64,000 bases of DNA from Thermodesulfobacteriota bacterium (lineage in GTDB: Bacteria; Desulfobacterota; Desulfobulbia; Desulfobulbales; SURF-16), in NCBI GenBank assembly GCA_039715015.1, contig JBDLIE010000005.1:32001-96000 (forward strand). The letters are read 5' to 3'. Positions 48,001-54,000 of this stretch are shown here, piece by piece. The position numbers were made by a program. The stretch's first letter is position 1. Each line of letters starts with the position of its first letter.

Positions 48001-51000
48001 CAGCCGCATCCTTATTGCTCTTACTCAGATGGTTCTCCAGGGCGGTCTTGGTGAAGATATCAACGATCTGCCAGCCATTGGTACAGCTCCCCTGTGGATG
48101 AGTGAGAAAGCCGTAGCCATTGGCCAGTATTTCGTGGCTAGTGGTGCTCAGGTTGTCTTCCAGGATTTGGCCACCTCCGGTGCCAAAACCTTCAACAAGT
48201 ATCTTCTTGAAGACATGATGGGAACCTATGGTGCCCATTGGAATGTTGCCAAGGATCCTAAAGAGATTGCCCGTGTCATGATTGAGGCCATTGAGTCTAA
48301 GCGCGATGCCCTTGGTATCAATAAGAAGAAAGAGCGTGTTCTTTTTGATATGAATATGCGTCGTGATCTTGGCGATGGTCAAGGCCTTACCGATGTCGGC
48401 TGTCACGGACCTGCCTAAAATGTAATTTCTTTTACCGGCAGCGCACGCTGTCTGTGAATATCTAAGAATGTAACGAGAAGGATATAGCCGATGAAATCGG
48501 GTAGTCGTTTAGAACGTATATTAAAGGCCGGTCATTTTGCTGTGACTGGTGAGCTTGGTCCGCCAAAGAGTGGTGATCCTGAGGTAGTTCGTAAGAAGGC
48601 CCGCATCCTGAAAGGCCATGTTGACGCAGTTAATATTACTGATTGTCAGACCGCCATTGTCCGGATGTCCAGTATTGCTGCAGGCCTTATCACCCAGCAG
48701 GAAGGTGTTGAGCCGGTAATCCAGATGACTTGCCGTGACCGTAATAGGATCGGTATGCAGAGTGATATCCTCGGTGCTTCAGCCTTGGGATTGAAAAATC
48801 TTCTCTGCCTCACTGGTGATCACCAGAAATTTGGTAACCACCCTGGTTCCAAGGGTGTCTTTGACATGGACTCCATCCAGCTTTTAGGGATGGTTAAGGA
48901 CATGCGGGATGAAAAGCAGTTTCAATGCGGTGAAGCAATTAAATCTGCTGAACCAAAGCTCTTTTTAGGCTGTGCAGCTAATCCCTTTGCCTTTCCTTTC
49001 GAGTTTCGCGCCAAGCGTCTTGCCAAAAAGGTGGCCAACGGTGCTGATTTTGTCCAGACCCAGATCATCTATAATGTTGAGAAATTTGCCAAATTCATGG
49101 AAATGGCCCGTGATATCGGCCTCCATGAAAAGGTGCATATCCTTGCCGGTGTAACCCCGCCGAAATCCCTCGGCATGGCCCGTTACATGAAAAATTTCGT
49201 GCCGGGTATGGATGTTACTGATGATGTTATCCAGCGCCTGAAAGATGCCAAGGATAAGCAGGATGAGGCCATAAATATCTGTGTGGATGTAATCAATCAG
49301 ATTAAGGAGATTGAAGGTGTTGCCGGTGCCCATGTCATGGCAATTGAGTGGGAAGAAGCCGTACCTGAAATTGTTAAACGGGCTGGGATGGATTCTCGTC
49401 CTGTTCTTGATGATGATGTTGCTGAAGCAGCTCCGTCTGAGACAAGAGAAACCATTGAAGTTCAAACTTTTGCCGCAGGGGAGAGTAAAGCTACTCTTGA
49501 TGATGCCAAGGCAGAGGCTGAAAAGATAATAGCAGCAGCAAAGGCTGAGGCCGCTAAACTTGTAGAACTCGAGAAGAGCGCTACTCCGGCACCTGTTTCA
49601 GCCCAACCTTCTGAAAAAGATAACGTTGTCGAAACGCAAGATGATGCAGGAGAACATGAGATGAACGAAAGAGAACGTCTGATGGCGTTAGAATCTGTTC
49701 AGAATGGTCTGAAGGCTTTGAAGGAGGCCTTTAACCTTACCGATGAACAGTTTGATGCCCTGGCAAATTTTGCTGGTGCTAAAAGCGTCCTTGAAAAAGA
49801 TCCAAATGTGACACCGGCTCCTGCAGCCCCTGTCTCTGCAGCTCCTGCCGCACCGGTCGCCCCTGCTGCGCCGGCTCCTGCAAGTACTGCAAGTGCAGCT
49901 TCTGCCGCTGCCCTTGAAAAACCAGCGCCAACTCCTCAGACTGCTGTTGACCTTCCTTCAGCTGTAGTGGCACGATACGAAGAGTTGATGAAACGTGCCG
50001 GCGCTTCAGTGCCATCTGCTGCTGCACCTGCTGCCGAGGCTGTTGATACAGCTGCCGCAGATGCTGCTGCCAAGAAGAAGGCTGAAGAAGAGGCTGCAGC
50101 TGAGAAGAAGAAAGCAGCAAAGCCGGCTGCCAAGAAAAAAGCAGCTCCTAAAAAGAAGAAGGCTGCTAAGTCGGCTCCGGTTGCAACTGGTGATGTCGGA
50201 GCATTTGCCGTCGAGCAGGAAGCCCTTGCTGATCGAGCTTCAAAGGTTCCTGTTGACTCCTACACTCAGAAATACACAGGTGCTATTCGTGAAACTACCC
50301 TGGGTAACGGCGATAATACCTTAACCATTGGTGGCGAGGATTCCATGCCCTTCCAGCTTTTTGAAGGGACCATGGCTAACAAACCACGCATTGCTATGGA
50401 TATCGTTGATGTCGACCCCAAAGAATGGCCAGAGACTCTGCGCCGTCATTTTGAGGATGTTATTGATAATCCGGTTGCTTGGGCTCAGAAATGTGTCAAC
50501 GAGTACAATGCAGAGGCAATCTGCATTTCCCTGGTTTCAACCGATCCTAACGGTATGAACAGAGACTCTGCAGAAGCTGCCAAGACTGCTGCCGAGGTAA
50601 TTGAAAATATCGACGTCCCCACCATTGTCTGGGGTTGTGGAAACGCTGATAAGGATACCGATACACTCCGTGAACTCACCTCTCTCATCGGTGACAAGAA
50701 GGTTTCTTTGGCTCCCCTTGAAGACAGCAACTACCGCTCTCTGGGCGCAACAGCAATGGCTTTCCAGCATCCCATTGTTGCTGCAAGCCCCATTGATGTA
50801 AACCTGGCCAAACAGCTCAACATTCTCTTGGAAAATCTTGGTGTCGGTCTTGACAACGTCATGATCGATCCTTCTGTGGGTGCACTTGGTTATGGTATCG
50901 AATATACTTACTCTGTCATGGAGCGTATCCGTCAGGCTGCCTTAATGCAGCAGGATGAAAAACTGCAGGTACCTATTATCTGTAACCTTGGTCGTGAAGT

Positions 51001-54000
51001 ATGGAAGGCGAAAGAATGTCGTCTGCCTTCTGATGATCTTATTGGTGACCAGGAAACCAGAAGCATCCTGATGGAAGCTATTACCGCAAGCTGTATGTTG
51101 ATGGCTGGTGGTGAGTTGATGATTATGCGTCATCCTAAGTCAATGAATCTGACCAAGGCTGTAATTGAAGGCCTCATGGCATAATAGAGCAAAGATTTTT
51201 ACCCGATCTTCAGTAGAGGAATTATTCAATGTCTAAAATAATCTGTTCAGCAGCAATTCGCGGTGCTCATAATATCGTGGATATGGCTGAGGAAAAATAT
51301 GAAGAAGCCCTGAAGAAATATGGAGCGGATCAGGATGTCAGCTTTCCGAATACCGCCTATTTCTTGCCCATTATCTACTCAATGCTTGGTGCCAAGGTCG
51401 AAAAGATTGGCGACATGAAGGATATCTTCCAGGAATGTCGCAAGCTTCTTCCTGAGCTTGTTACCGATCACACCTGGCTTCCCTATCTTGCTCCGGCCCT
51501 TGATGCTGGTATGGCCACCTATTTCGCTGAAGAGATGTATGAGGCCATTCGCTACATCGATACACCTGAATTTTATACCAAGAGCGAAGATCCCACTGAC
51601 AGCAATTTATGGCTTGGTGCTGCTGATGATGTCATCTTCCGTAAGCGTGGTGTAGAATTTGTTGATGGTTCTGCCCCTGGTTTTGCCGCAATTGTCGGTG
51701 CTCCTGATGATAAAGATGTAGCTTCTAAGATTGCCCTGGAGCTGCAGGAAAAGAATCTTTACATCTTCATGCACGACCACAGCAAAAACGGCAAAAACAT
51801 GTCGCAGCAGTTGGTTGATAGTGGTGTTCAGGTTGGCTGGAATACCCGTCTGGTGCCTTTTGCTGATAATTATACATCCGTTGTTTTTGCCATTGGTTTT
51901 GCCTGTCGTGTGGCCATGGCCTTCGGTGGAATCAAGCCCGGTGATTACACCGGTAACCTGATTTACAATAAGGATCGTACCTTTGCCTTTGTTATGGCCT
52001 TTGGCGATGTCTCTGATGAGTGGTATGCCAATGCCGCTGGTGCCATCAACTGGGGCTTCCCAACCATCTCTGACTACGATATCCCTGAGGTGCTGCCAAC
52101 TGGTATCTGCACCTACGAGCATGTTGTCTCCAACGTGCCCCATGATGAGTTTGTCCAGAAGGCCATTGAGGTCCGCGGCCTGAAGGTTAATGTTACCAAG
52201 ATTGACATCCCCATGTCCTTTGGTCCTGCCTTTGAGGGTGAGCGTATCCGTAAGGATGACCTGTTCATGGAATGTGGTGGTGGCCGTACAACTGGCGTTG
52301 AGGTTCTTATCTCCAAAGAGATGGACGAGGTTGAAGACGGCCTTGTTACTCTGGAAGGCTTAGATATCTCTGATATCAAACAGGGTCAGAACCTGCCCAT
52401 CAGTATCCTGGTTGAGGTTGCCGGCCGCGAGATGCAGTCAGATTTTGAGCCTATTTTGGAGCGTCAATTCCATCACCTGATGAATTATATCCAGGGTATC
52501 ATGCATATTGGTCAGCGTGATATTATGTGGATCAGGATTGGTCACGGTGCTGTTGAAAAAGGATTCTCTTTCAAGCACTTGGGTAAAGTGCTTCACGGAA
52601 AGCTTCATCAGGAGTTTGGTGCAATCCTTGATAAGGTTCAGGTTAAAATCTCCACTGTTCAGGAAACAGTTGAGCAGGTTCTTGCCCTTGCCAAAGAGAC
52701 CTATGGTGAACGTGACCTTCGCCTCGGCAACATGACCGATGAGACTGAAGAGGTCTTCTACTCATGTACCCTGTGTCAGTCTTTCGCCCCATCCCACGTC
52801 TGTGTTATCACCCCGGAGCGTGTCGGTATGTGTGGTGCCTATAACTGGCTGGATGGTAAGGCCTCTTTCCAGATCAACCCCACCGGACCGAACCAGCCCA
52901 TTGAGAAGGGTGAATGTACTGATGAAGAGCTTGGTGATTTTGTCGGAATTAACGACTTTGTTAACCAGGCCTCCCGTGGTGCTGTCCCTGAGGTAAGCTG
53001 TTACTCCCTGATGAACAACCCCATGACCGCTTGCGGTTGTTTTGAGGCCATTGCTGCCATGCTGCCTCAATGTAACGGCATCATGGTCGTTAACCGCGAC
53101 TATATGGGGATGACACCTTCTGGTATGAAGTTCACCTCCCTGGCTGGTATGGCTGGTGGTGGCGCCCAGACCCCTGGTTTCATGGGTGTTTCTAAACATT
53201 ACATGACCAGCCGTAAGCTGTTCATGGCTGAGGGTGGTCTCAAGCGTGTTGTTTGGATTCCTAAGATCCTCAAGGATGAGATTAGCGACAAGCTGAGGGC
53301 TCGCTGCGAAGAGATCGGTATGCCGGAACTTTACGATATGATTGCCACAGAAGAGCAGGGCACCACTGAAGAGGAAATCCTTGCCTTCCTGAAAGAAAAA
53401 GGTCATCCGGCCTTGGAGATGGAGTCTGCAGTATAAGCCGACCCCCATTCTTACCCAGATAATGATAAAAATTGATTGTATTTATATAAATAAGAGAGAG
53501 GGCTAGAAAATGGCTTTAACTGGTATCCAGATCCTCAAAATGCTCCCCAAGAAGAATTGTGGTGAGTGTCAAATTCCTACCTGCCTTGCCTTTGCAATGA
53601 AAGTTGCAGCTGGTCAGGCTGAGATTGGCGAGTGTCCTTACGTAAGTGACGAAGCAAAGGCCACCATTGGCGAGGCCTCAGCCCCTCCTATCCGTACTGT
53701 TCAGGTGGGTAATGGCGACACCGCCTTTAAGGCTGGTGGTGAGACATGCCTCTATCGTCATGAAAAGCGTTTTGAAAATCCCACTGGTATTGCCGTACTT
53801 GTTACAACGGAAATGGCAGATGCTGATGTTGACGGTCGGGTCGAGCGTTTTAAGACCCTTCGCTATGATCGCGTTGGCGTGAACTTGAAGGCCGATCTTA
53901 TTGCTATCAAAGATAGTGACGGTGATCAGGGTAAGTTTACTAGCCTTGTTCAGAAAGTCCTGGATGGTGCAACTGATGCCAACATTATCCTCATGACTGA

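What a model noticed while it worked through the whole genome (the two positions that open the first line are those of the whole stretch)
48491..51184. Methylene-THF reductase fused to the corrinoid Fe-S protein small subunit: an order-wide Wood-Ljungdahl fusion
In the Wood-Ljungdahl operon (folD-cooS-g00555-acsB-acsC-fdh-hdrA-mvhD) g00555 (897 aa) is one frame joining a complete MetF-type methylenetetrahydrofolate reductase (res 6-299) through a ~290-residue Ala/Pro/Lys/Glu-rich tether to a complete AcsD/CdhD, the small subunit of the corrinoid iron-sulfur protein (res 593-896, 42% identical to Moorella AcsD). The enzyme that makes methyl-THF is tied to the complex that receives the methyl group. 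The fusion is a hallmark of Desulfobulbales; NCBIfam names it only as the delta subunit.
Evidence so far: Pfam MTHFR 6-299 (whole model) and CdhD 602-842; NF003376 on the last third; Swiss-Prot AcsD hit on 593-896; linker read; gene order. Single open frames of 853-945 aa matching query 1 to 895 or more at 65-82% identity in 69 of 120 other sampled Desulfobulbales genomes (13 of 14 SURF-16 full length), some closed genomes; in a phylum sample 1 of 6 Desulfobulbales and 0 of 194 other Desulfobacterota had a full-length match. Paper searches found no MetF-AcsD fusion.
(Added by a program. Inside this text positions count along the whole contig: contig position 32,001 is position 1 of the stretch shown here. 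"Call 12" and the like, gene names such as g00115 and contig names such as C1 are that model's own, and its searches are not shown. The text may have been shortened before it was handed on; [...] marks where a part breaks off. The agent that wrote the report below was given it as the finding of a first reader that could run no searches.)

Follow-up and report, generated by a model that had tools for sequence, protein, structure and literature searches.

The report
Known MetF-AcsD fusion, wider than thought
One real gene in this CO2-fixation operon joins methylene-tetrahydrofolate reductase to the small subunit of the corrinoid iron-sulfur protein, but the fusion has already been named in a genome paper, occurs in three classes of sulfur bacteria, and has never been tested biochemically.

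Summary
Window 48491-51184 (+) is one 897-aa frame with a complete MTHFR domain (res 6-299), a 283-aa Ala/Glu/Lys/Pro-rich linker and a complete AcsD (res 588-896). It lies between cooS and acsB-acsC.

- The fusion is in print. Melton et al. 2016 (PMC5016858) lists 'mthfr/acsD ... fusion' for Desulfurivibrio alkaliphilus, crediting Pierce et al. 2008.
- It is neither order-wide nor confined to the order. A match needing both halves occurs in 202 of 401 sampled genomes of the order, and four closed genomes carry separate genes. The fusion also occurs in Thermodesulfatator, Thermosulfurimonas, Caldimicrobium, Dissulfuribacter, Dissulfurimicrobium and Dissulfurirhabdus.

- The fused MetF domains form one clade.
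- The linker carries a conserved helix-turn-helix, and TPR repeats in the long forms.
- In the other classes the gene follows hdrA-mvhD-FeS-mvhD-metV.
- A model supports binding of the MetF domain to the genome's unlinked MetV.

This scan has reported the fusion at least twelve times before on other DNA. Verdict: real, already known, mechanism untested.

The parts
48491..51184 (+). MetF-linker-AcsD fusion gene, 897 aa (P0001)
   Evidence: ORF, translation, Pfam and NCBIfam, SD-like GAGAAGGA 8 nt upstream
48506..49387 (+). MTHFR (MetF) domain, res 6-299
   Evidence: PF02219 model positions 1-287 of 287, 132.8 bits. Confident TIM-barrel model. E21, D110 and Q191 are invariant in 15 fusions, and at least 90% conserved (Q191 invariant) in 53
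49403..50251 (+). Linker, res 305-587, Ala/Glu/Lys/Pro-rich and mostly predicted disordered
   Evidence: Composition. pLDDT below 50 at res 310-332, 364-392, 433-489, 504-544 and 546-566. Linker length ranges from 225 to 487 aa in 53 fusions
49640..49798 (+). Conserved helix-turn-helix motif inside the linker, res 384-436
   Evidence: E395, L400, G406, L407, L410, L416, Q420, A423, F427, A430 and L434 are at least 90% conserved in 53 fusions from three classes. Helices at res 393-414 and 418-434 with pLDDT 58-77
50252..51178 (+). AcsD/CdhD domain (small subunit of the corrinoid iron-sulfur protein), res 588-896
   Evidence: NF003376 at 376.7 bits against a cut-off of 280. Full-length matches to 2H9A_B and 4DJD_D
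40961..42751 (+). fhs (formate-tetrahydrofolate ligase)
   Evidence: PF01268, 753 bits
42929..45145 (+). PilB/PulE-like ATPase with MshEN and cNMP-binding domains, inside the operon
   Evidence: 'pulE' is also among the Fig. 3 abbreviations of Melton 2016
45514..46398 (+). folD
46427..48418 (+). cooS/acsA (CO dehydrogenase catalytic subunit)
   Evidence: TIGR01702, 593 bits
51229..53436 (+). acsB (acetyl-CoA synthase)
   Evidence: NF040764, 1069 bits
53510..54865 (+). acsC (large, corrinoid-binding subunit of the corrinoid iron-sulfur protein), the expected partner of the AcsD domain
   Evidence: NF003195, 592 bits against a cut-off of 306
54983..59110 (+). Formate dehydrogenase fused to a GltD/NfnB-like flavoprotein module, one frame with an in-frame TGA (selenocysteine) at 57461-57463
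   Evidence: The sequence reads ...ARL-TGA-HAPTV
59144..62197 (+). hdrA, with an in-frame TGA (selenocysteine) upstream of the table-11 ORF start
   Evidence: NF040770. Read-through translation gives ...NDCSL-U-ILAPKLVEAGRSPNIEI
62197..62793 (+). mvhD (FlpD family), with an in-frame TGA (selenocysteine) at residue 68 of the frame as translated from 62194
   Evidence: PF02662 on the downstream part. Read-through translation

Best explanation
This is a genuine gene fusion of single origin that encodes one polypeptide with two working parts.

The N-terminal part is the catalytic MetF subunit of a MetFV-type methylene-THF reductase. It most likely takes electrons through a separately encoded MetV and the MvhD, polyferredoxin and HdrA proteins. 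The C-terminal part is AcsD, which pairs with AcsC to form the corrinoid iron-sulfur protein of the acetyl-CoA synthase machinery.

The linker is long and mostly disordered, with one conserved helical motif. It keeps the reductase module physically attached to the corrinoid protein. Methyl-THF would then be released next to AcsE and AcsC, which consume it, and the two modules would be made in a 1:1 ratio.

Shown: the domain identities, the conservation, the single clade, the gene contexts, and protein-level expression of an ortholog. Inferred: catalytic activity of the fused MetF, the MetV and Hdr partnership, an intact polypeptide in the cell, and any kinetic benefit of tethering.
For: - Both domains are complete and above curated cut-offs.
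- MetF residues E21, D110 and Q191 are invariant in 15 fusions. In 53 fusions Q191 is invariant and E21 and D110 are at least 90% conserved. From recalled E. coli MetF work these correspond to the catalytic Glu28, Asp120 and Gln183.
- The fusion is kept as one stop-free frame in 150 of 150 listed matches. At least 202 of 401 genomes of the order match at a score that needs both halves, and the fusion occurs in two further classes.
- In a tree of MetF domains, the 52 fused ones form one side of a branch against 31 and then 38 unfused ones (SH-aLRT 98 and 99).
- In three loci annotated from the other classes, two of them Thermodesulfatator indicus and Dissulfuribacter thermophilus by exact protein look-up, the gene order is cooS, hdrA, mvhD, polyferredoxin, mvhD, metV, fusion, acsB, acsC, acsE. 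The MetF half therefore sits exactly where MetF sits in a MetV/Hdr-type reductase cluster.
- This genome has the same polyferredoxin-mvhD-metV trio on contig C6, and hdrA and mvhD in the operon.
- The complex model supports binding of MetF res 1-305 to this genome's MetV. The score is 0.66 and the best of 3 controls is 0.00. That mark was reached by 116 of 157 solved complexes and 2 of 215 mismatched pairs. The runs agree in at least 95% of contacts and the partner's pLDDT is at least 92. No MetFV structure appeared among PDB sequence matches, so the pass is unlikely to come from memory. My own alignments were used, and the MetV one has only 5 rows.
- The Desulfurivibrio dismutans ortholog (P0N66_RS08750, 2697 nt) was detected in that organism's proteome at riBAQ rank 250 and 187, and its MetV at rank 155 and 127 (Table S1 of PMC12142623).
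Against: - There is no biochemistry on any member.
- AcsD is not the methyl acceptor. Transfer needs AcsE, whose only candidate here is unlinked (contig C45) and scores below the NCBIfam cut-offs: 188.8 against 259, and 177.8 against 370.
- A 283-aa, mostly disordered linker constrains distance only loosely.
- The genome has a second MTHFR fused to its own MetV domain (526 aa, contig C6). That protein could be the pathway reductase instead.
- Shotgun proteomics does not show that the polypeptide stays intact.
- The AcsD part scores below the cut-off of the strict NF040759 WLP_AcsD model: 308.7 against 430.
- The tree used the 'quick' search, and its unfused rows are the 31 usable best-scoring ones plus 7 from four genomes.
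Confidence: 0.6

Rival explanations
1. The fusion is only a co-expression device. The linker is cut after translation, or the tethering has no kinetic role, and MetF and AcsD then work as in organisms with separate genes.
For: The linker is low-complexity, varies from 225 to 487 aa, and is mostly predicted disordered, which is typical of protease-accessible regions. Related genomes manage with separate genes.
Against: A conserved linker motif is retained across three classes, and TPR repeats are kept in the long forms. Both argue that the linker is under selection for more than being cut. The frame is kept open in all 150 listed matches.
Confidence: 0.17
2. The fused MetF domain is not the pathway reductase. 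The 526-aa MetF-MetV paralog would do that job, and the fused domain would act as a folate-binding or scaffolding module that hands methyl-THF to the corrinoid protein.
For: A second MTHFR with its own MetV domain exists on contig C6, and a YitJ-type homocysteine methyltransferase-MTHFR is also present. The acsE-like gene is unlinked and below cut-off.
Against: The putative catalytic residues are conserved. Stand-alone orthologs at 59-71% identity are the MetF proteins of other Wood-Ljungdahl organisms. metV directly precedes the fusion gene in the other classes. The model supports MetV binding over the mouth of the MetF barrel, including res 108-114 around D110. The paralog scores lower on the MTHFR model: 85 bits against 133.
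Confidence: 0.1
3. An internal start inside the gene also yields a free AcsD, as earlier notes of this scan proposed for other genomes.
For: Earlier AI notes e1-2371901 and e1-2086243 reported a conserved internal SD plus ATG in relatives.
Against: This gene has no in-frame ATG, GTG or TTG at all between residues 508 and 611. The four at residues 493-507 have no SD-like sequence upstream.
Confidence: 0.03

Closest known systems
'mthfr/acsD' fusion of Desulfurivibrio alkaliphilus AHT2 and delta proteobacterium MLMS-1 (Melton et al. 2016, PMC5016858, crediting Pierce et al. 2008)
   Same: The architecture is the same, and so is the operon, including the pulE-like ATPase, folD, CODH, acsB, acsC and fdh. 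The D. alkaliphilus protein (P0092, 893 aa, both Pfam domains) is among the hits, at 74% identity over the best local segment.
   Different: Nothing essential: this is an ortholog in another genus. The paper only names the fusion in an abbreviation list, and its text calls the gene 'a methylene-THF reductase'. It gives no distribution, linker analysis, partners or function. I saw passages and section 13 of Melton 2016. Pierce 2008 is not held, so its content is recalled or inferred from Melton's citation.
MetFV-HdrABC-MvhD methylene-THF reductase of Moorella thermoacetica (Hdr-associated type; described in passages of PMC10553843; details recalled)
   Same: The MetF half has a MetV partner gene, and hdrA and mvhD lie in the same operon. 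In the other classes the order hdrA, mvhD, FeS, mvhD, metV, metF-acsD mirrors an hdr-mvhD-metVF cluster. The model supports MetF-MetV binding.
   Different: MetF is covalently joined to AcsD. I did not look for HdrB or HdrC homologs; a 180-189 aa polyferredoxin sits in that place. HdrA and MvhD are selenoproteins here. In this genome metV is unlinked.
[quoted passage not shown]
   Same: The sequence match is full-length, E 4.5e-83 and 4.3e-80, and acsC is adjacent.
   Different: The solved proteins are free-standing, at 310-323 aa. Here about 590 residues (MetF plus linker) precede the domain.
Unfused MetF and AcsD of other Desulfobulbales (family f17 of the sample)
   Same: The pathway and the order are the same.
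   Different: MetF is separate, in frames of 315-400 aa. It belongs to another MetF lineage that groups with Syntrophobacterales-type proteins (99 support). AcsD is a 516-542 aa protein with a C-terminal extension of about 200 aa of no known family, in a RACo-AcsD-CooS cluster.

Membership tests
MTHFR / MetF (PF02219) | Full-length match to the family model above the curated cut-off | tested here: met
   Res 6-299 cover model positions 1-287 of 287, at 132.8 bits against a cut-off of 24. The equivalog models TIGR00676 and TIGR00677 score far below their cut-offs (65 and 67 bits against 294 and 310), so this is not the E. coli or eukaryote type.
MTHFR / MetF (PF02219) | Conserved catalytic Glu, Asp and Gln of the barrel (roles recalled from E. 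coli MetF Glu28, Asp120 and Gln183) | tested here: met
   E21, D110 and Q191 are invariant in 15 fusions. In 53 fusions Q191 is invariant and E21 and D110 are at least 90% conserved. D110 and Q191 align with the human LRGD and TQ motifs. The role assignment is recalled, not computed.
MTHFR / MetF (PF02219) | Flavin binding and reductase activity | not testable with these tools
MetFV-type (acetogen-type) MTHFR | A MetV (DUF5981 / MTHFR_C) partner | tested here: met
   A stand-alone MetV of 222 aa lies on contig C6. metV lies directly upstream of the fusion in 3 of 3 annotated loci of other classes. The complex model scores 0.66 against a best control of 0.00, a mark reached by 116 of 157 solved and 2 of 215 mismatched pairs. 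A model is not a measurement.
Hdr-associated MTHFR (Moorella MetFV-HdrABC-MvhD) | hdrA and mvhD encoded with metF | tested here: met
   hdrA (59144-62197) and mvhD (62197-62793) lie in the same operon, and are adjacent to the fusion in other classes.
Hdr-associated MTHFR (Moorella MetFV-HdrABC-MvhD) | hdrB and hdrC present | not tested
   I did not search for HdrB (CCG domain). A 4Fe-4S polyferredoxin of 180-189 aa occupies the neighbouring position.
AcsD/CdhD, small subunit of the corrinoid iron-sulfur protein | Full-length match to curated subunit-delta models and to solved AcsD/CfsB | tested here: met
   NF003376 scores 376.7 against a cut-off of 280. 2H9A_B is covered over chain positions 4-302 of 310, and 4DJD_D over 21-318 of 323.
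AcsD/CdhD, small subunit of the corrinoid iron-sulfur protein | Score above the strict NF040759 WLP_AcsD model | tested here: not met
   308.7 bits against a cut-off of 430. The alignment is nonetheless full-length, covering model positions 4-312 of 312.
AcsD/CdhD, small subunit of the corrinoid iron-sulfur protein | Partner AcsC encoded nearby, and no other AcsD in the genome | tested here: met
   acsC lies at 53510-54865. The whole-genome CdhD search finds only the fusion, AcsC, a C-terminal-only hit on contig C62 and the acsE-like gene.
Published mthfr/acsD fusion (D. alkaliphilus / MLMS-1) | One polypeptide with MTHFR at the N-terminus and AcsD at the C-terminus, in the acs cluster | tested here: met

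The most novel reading that the evidence does not exclude
The fusion may be the covalent hinge of a larger assembly. In this reading a flavin-based, Hdr/MvhD/MetV-fed methylene-THF reductase is permanently docked onto the corrinoid protein and the CODH/ACS machinery. The last reduction of the methyl branch, its low-potential electron supply and the methyl hand-over would then happen in one particle. The conserved linker helix-turn-helix, and the TPR repeats of the long forms, would be the docking elements for a third partner. On this view the fusion arose once, before Desulfobulbia, Dissulfuribacteria and Thermodesulfobacteria diverged, and would mark the autotrophic, largely sulfur-disproportionating lineages of the phylum.
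Probability: 0.25. Interest if true: 0.6.

Novelty: already known. Interest (0 to 1): 0.28.

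Why it matters
The electron donor and the physical organisation of methylene-THF reductase remain open questions in the energetics of the Wood-Ljungdahl pathway. PMC8760232 frames the donor question (I saw its abstract in the listing). 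A natural protein that ties MetF covalently to the corrinoid protein offers an entry point, and several cultured carriers exist: Desulfurivibrio, Desulfocapsa, Thermodesulfatator and Dissulfuribacter. With it one could test whether the methyl and carbonyl branches work as one assembly and whether methyl-THF is channelled.

There is also a practical consequence. The fusion is annotated by one half only. Genome papers therefore list other genes as 'the' MTHFR; for example, the Dissulfurimicrobium paper cites two loci outside the cluster. Pathway-presence surveys that require 70% query coverage (PMC12827605) may mis-score one of the two functions.

The existence of the fusion is not new, which limits the interest of this finding as such.

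Tried and rejected
1. 'The fusion replaces the missing methyltransferase AcsE'. Rejected: an AcsE-like Pterin_bind protein of 298 aa exists on contig C45, although it scores below the NCBIfam cut-offs. acsE closes the operon in the other classes.

2. 'The fusion replaces the reductive activator RACo'. Rejected: RACo is present in this genome, just upstream of the acsE-like gene on C45, and in 5 of 5 closed fusion-bearing genomes tested.

3. 'An internal start gives a free AcsD'. This gene has no candidate start codon between residues 508 and 611.

4. 'The linker contains a MetV-like Cys domain'. The linker has no Cys, and Pfam finds nothing between the two domains.

5. Unfused genes in Desulfobulbales arising by fission of the fusion. 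Not supported: 7 unfused MetFs from four closed genomes fall with other unfused Thermodesulfobacteriota (99 support), outside the fused clade.

6. Papers not held: Pierce et al. 2008 and Ragsdale & Pierce 2008. The first mention in 2008 therefore rests on Melton's citation and on recall.

7. Literature searches that found no further description of the fusion. Passages read without a mention: PMC10553843, PMC12827605, PMC12142623, PMC6976610, PMC8780430, PMC9676032, PMC7857596 and PMC11247825. Subscription journals and bioRxiv supplements are outside this check.

8. Promoter and terminator scan of window 45000-55000: no site lies in the gaps on either side of the gene, and terminator-like hits are not above the shuffled expectation (7 found, 9.2 expected). 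This is consistent with co-transcription but shows nothing more.

Full report
**Observation**

Window 48491-51184 (+) is a single ATG-started ORF of 897 aa. A GAGAAGGA ribosome-binding sequence lies 8 nt upstream.

- Pfam places a complete MTHFR domain on res 6-299, covering model positions 1-287 of 287 (132.8 bits), and CdhD on res 602-842.
- NCBIfam NF003376 (subunit delta) covers res 588-896 above its cut-off, 376.7 against 280. The strict WLP_AcsD model NF040759 stays below its cut-off, 308.7 against 430.
- The C-terminal 319 residues align end to end with the solved small subunits of the corrinoid iron-sulfur protein: 2H9A_B (E 4.5e-83) and Moorella 4DJD_D (E 4.3e-80).
- The N-terminal 305 residues find only distant solved MTHFRs from human, Thermus and yeast.
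- The linker between the domains is 283 aa, 57.6% Ala, Pro, Lys or Glu, with no Cys or Trp.
- The neighbours are fhs, a PilB/PulE-like ATPase, folD, cooS, the fusion, acsB, acsC, a formate dehydrogenase, hdrA and mvhD.

The '42% to Moorella' figure was not recomputed.

**Prior art**

Melton et al. [quoted passage not shown] 3. They say the cluster was defined for strain MLMS-1 by Pierce et al. 2008. That 2008 paper and the 2008 review are not held. The D. alkaliphilus protein is among the homologs (P0092, 893 aa).

No other paper I could search describes the fusion. The nine searches and eight papers read are listed under Tried and rejected. Earlier reports of this scan met the same fusion at least twelve times on other genomes, and several reached the same paper. 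I had found it independently.

**Distribution**

All of the best 120 database hits carry both Pfam domains and are 852-919 aa long.

Within the order:
- In 401 genomes sampled from the order, 333 have some match at E <= 1e-20.
- The 150 listed matches are all stop-free frames of 850-945 aa.
- At E <= 1e-200, which a single domain cannot reach, 202 of 401 genomes match. That is 142 of 266 high-quality genomes, 55 of 83 genera, and 12 of 17 families with at least one. This is a floor, because fragmented genomes and split alignments are missed.
- The own family has 33 of 39 and the own genus 5 of 7.
- Genus g26 has 0 of 46 even at the looser threshold.
- Four closed genomes of family f17 have separate MetF genes (frames of 315-400 aa) and a separate AcsD. 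Their AcsD is 516-542 aa, in a RACo-AcsD-CooS cluster.

So the fusion is common in the order but not universal.

Outside the order:
- In a phylum sample (401 genomes at least 85% complete), one genome has a single alignment over query residues 4-895 in an 844-aa frame.
- At least 19 further genomes from at least 9 other families show the two halves as two alignments in one frame of 804-1174 aa.
- I fetched 14 such loci, one of them from within the order, and each holds one ORF with a MetF N-terminus and an AcsD C-terminus.
- Exact-sequence look-up found 7 of 10 of these proteins on record, under names that include Thermodesulfatator indicus and T. atlanticus, Dissulfurimicrobium and Dissulfuribacter thermophilus. 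Dissulfurirhabdus thermomarina appeared.
- A pattern scan of named genomes adds Thermosulfurimonas dismutans, Caldimicrobium, Candidatus Electrothrix aarhusensis, Hydrosulfovibrio ferrireducens, Desulfocapsa and others. Chloroflexota, Actinomycetota, Planctomycetota and Pelotomaculum hold only stand-alone MetF orthologs at 55-71% identity (the best 80 of 597 relatives were shown).

**Origin**

In a maximum-likelihood tree of MetF domains (IQ-TREE quick search, LG+C20+F+G4 fitted by PMSF), the 52 fused domains form one side of a branch against 31 unfused ones (SH-aLRT 98). They do so again after adding 7 unfused MetFs from the four closed Desulfobulbales genomes (99). Those seven group with other unfused Thermodesulfobacteriota (99).

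Two rows were dropped. P0171 held only 148 residues of the domain, and no frame was found for L115.

The result is consistent with one fusion event and vertical descent, with other Desulfobulbales carrying a different gene set. The tree is unrooted, the search was the quick one, and I built no AcsD tree.

**The linker**

Linker length ranges from 225 to 487 aa in 53 fusions. Most of it is unconserved, but one island is kept in all three classes. In the window protein E395, L400, G406, L407, L410, L416, Q420, A423, F427, A430 and L434 are at least 90% conserved.

AlphaFold2 with this 53-row alignment gives a mean pLDDT of 75.4 and a pTM of 0.48. Both barrels are confident. The linker falls below pLDDT 50 at res 310-332, 364-392, 433-489, 504-544 and 546-566. 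It has helices at res 333-363, at 393-414 plus 418-434 (the conserved motif, pLDDT 58-77), and at 490-502.

The long forms of Dissulfuribacteria and relatives carry a coiled-coil-like stretch and true TPR repeats in the linker (Pfam TPR_1, TPR_2, TPR_8 and TPR_11). A search with that linker alone found 55 proteins. The linker is thus more than a passive tether, but its partner is unknown.

**Partners and mechanism**

In the three loci annotated from other classes the order is cooS, hdrA, mvhD, polyferredoxin, mvhD, metV (DUF5981), fusion, acsB, acsC, acsE. This is the layout of an Hdr/MvhD-linked MetVF reductase with AcsD appended to MetF.

In the window's genome the same parts exist but are dispersed:
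- hdrA and mvhD lie downstream of fdh in the operon.
- The polyferredoxin-mvhD-metV trio lies on contig C6.
- RACo and an acsE-like gene lie on contig C45.

The genome also has a 526-aa MetF-MetV paralog and a YitJ-type homocysteine methyltransferase-MTHFR. No second AcsD is present.

A complex model of MetF res 1-305 with the genome's MetV scores 0.66, and the best of 3 controls scores 0.00. That mark was reached by 116 of 157 solved and 2 of 215 mismatched pairs. The runs agree in at least 95% of contacts and the partner's pLDDT is at least 92. My own alignments were used, so the calibration counts hold only roughly. The interface joins the Cys-rich MetV segment 153-171 to MetF res 81-82, 108-114 and 124-130, around the conserved D110.

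An ortholog and its MetV are detected in the D. dismutans proteome (Table S1 of PMC12142623).

My reading is that a MetV-dependent reductase is covalently tied to the corrinoid protein, so that methyl-THF is made beside AcsE and AcsC and the two modules are made in equal amounts. The activity, the intactness of the protein and any channelling are all inferred.

**Verdict**

The feature is real and well conserved. Its existence is already in print, and this scan has reported it repeatedly, so it is not a discovery.

Three points remain open and modestly interesting. The fusion appears to have a single origin across three classes. The linker holds conserved modules. And the gene is linked to an Hdr/MvhD/MetV module, which makes a testable case for a combined methyl-branch and acetyl-CoA synthase assembly.

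Noticed in passing
window 54983-62793: Three consecutive genes are read through in-frame TGA codons at positions typical of selenocysteine. The formate dehydrogenase reads ...ARL-U-HAPTV at 57461-57463. hdrA reads ...NDCSL-U-IL, with its true start near 59144 rather than 59543. mvhD reads GG-U-QLGECH. Table-11 ORF calling splits or truncates all three. I did not look for SECIS elements.
   Followed up: partly
window 54983-59110: The formate dehydrogenase is one frame of about 1375 aa. A 2Fe-2S and GltD/NfnB-like NAD(P)-flavoprotein module is fused in front of the molybdopterin catalytic part. The D. dismutans paper describes the ortholog as a fused FdhAB next to hdrA and mvhD.
   Followed up: partly
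window 42929-45145: A PilB/GspE-type ATPase lies between fhs and folD inside the Wood-Ljungdahl operon. It has an N-terminal c-di-GMP-binding MshEN domain and a C-terminal cyclic-nucleotide-binding domain. The same 'pulE' gene is among the abbreviations for the D. alkaliphilus cluster figure. Its role there is unexplained.
   Followed up: no
own genome contig C6: L043 7920-9497 and 12544-14243: A second MTHFR is fused to its own MetV-like domain (526 aa). About 3 kb downstream lies a polyferredoxin-mvhD-metV trio that matches the genes placed directly before the fusion in Thermodesulfatator and Dissulfuribacter.
   Followed up: partly
own genome contig C45: L005 1405-2301 and L128: The only AcsE-like methyltransferase (298 aa) scores below both NCBIfam AcsE cut-offs. 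It lies next to a RACo-type reductive activator near a contig end, with a 231-aa ORF of no family between them.
   Followed up: partly
L028 5604-8819, L031 5609-8734 and relatives: The long-form fusions (about 1000-1110 aa) carry a coiled-coil-like segment, two TPR-like units and a conserved 'LPPCPxxLTxEEW' stretch in the linker. The Desulfobulbales forms lack these.
   Followed up: partly
L044 2298-3857, L046 4043-5668: In Desulfobulbales genomes without the fusion, AcsD is 516-542 aa, with a C-terminal extension of about 200 aa that matches no Pfam family. It is flanked by RACo and CooS.
   Followed up: no
window 62954-63935: Two small ORFs follow mvhD. The 141-aa ORF has only a sub-threshold DUF5666 hit (E 0.0063), and the 165-aa ORF has only a weak, sub-threshold DsrE-like hit. 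Their function is unknown.
   Followed up: no
own genome contig C62:11368-11718 (L008): A 388-aa frame matches only the C-terminal third of the CdhD model (46.9 bits). It may be an HgcA-like or other corrinoid protein. I did not examine it.
   Followed up: no
literature: PMC8780430, PMC12827605: Because the fusion is annotated by one half only, the Dissulfurimicrobium genome paper lists two other loci as its methylene-THF reductase. A 2026 survey of Wood-Ljungdahl genes in Desulfobacterota used a 70% query-coverage rule and mentions no fusion.
   Followed up: partly
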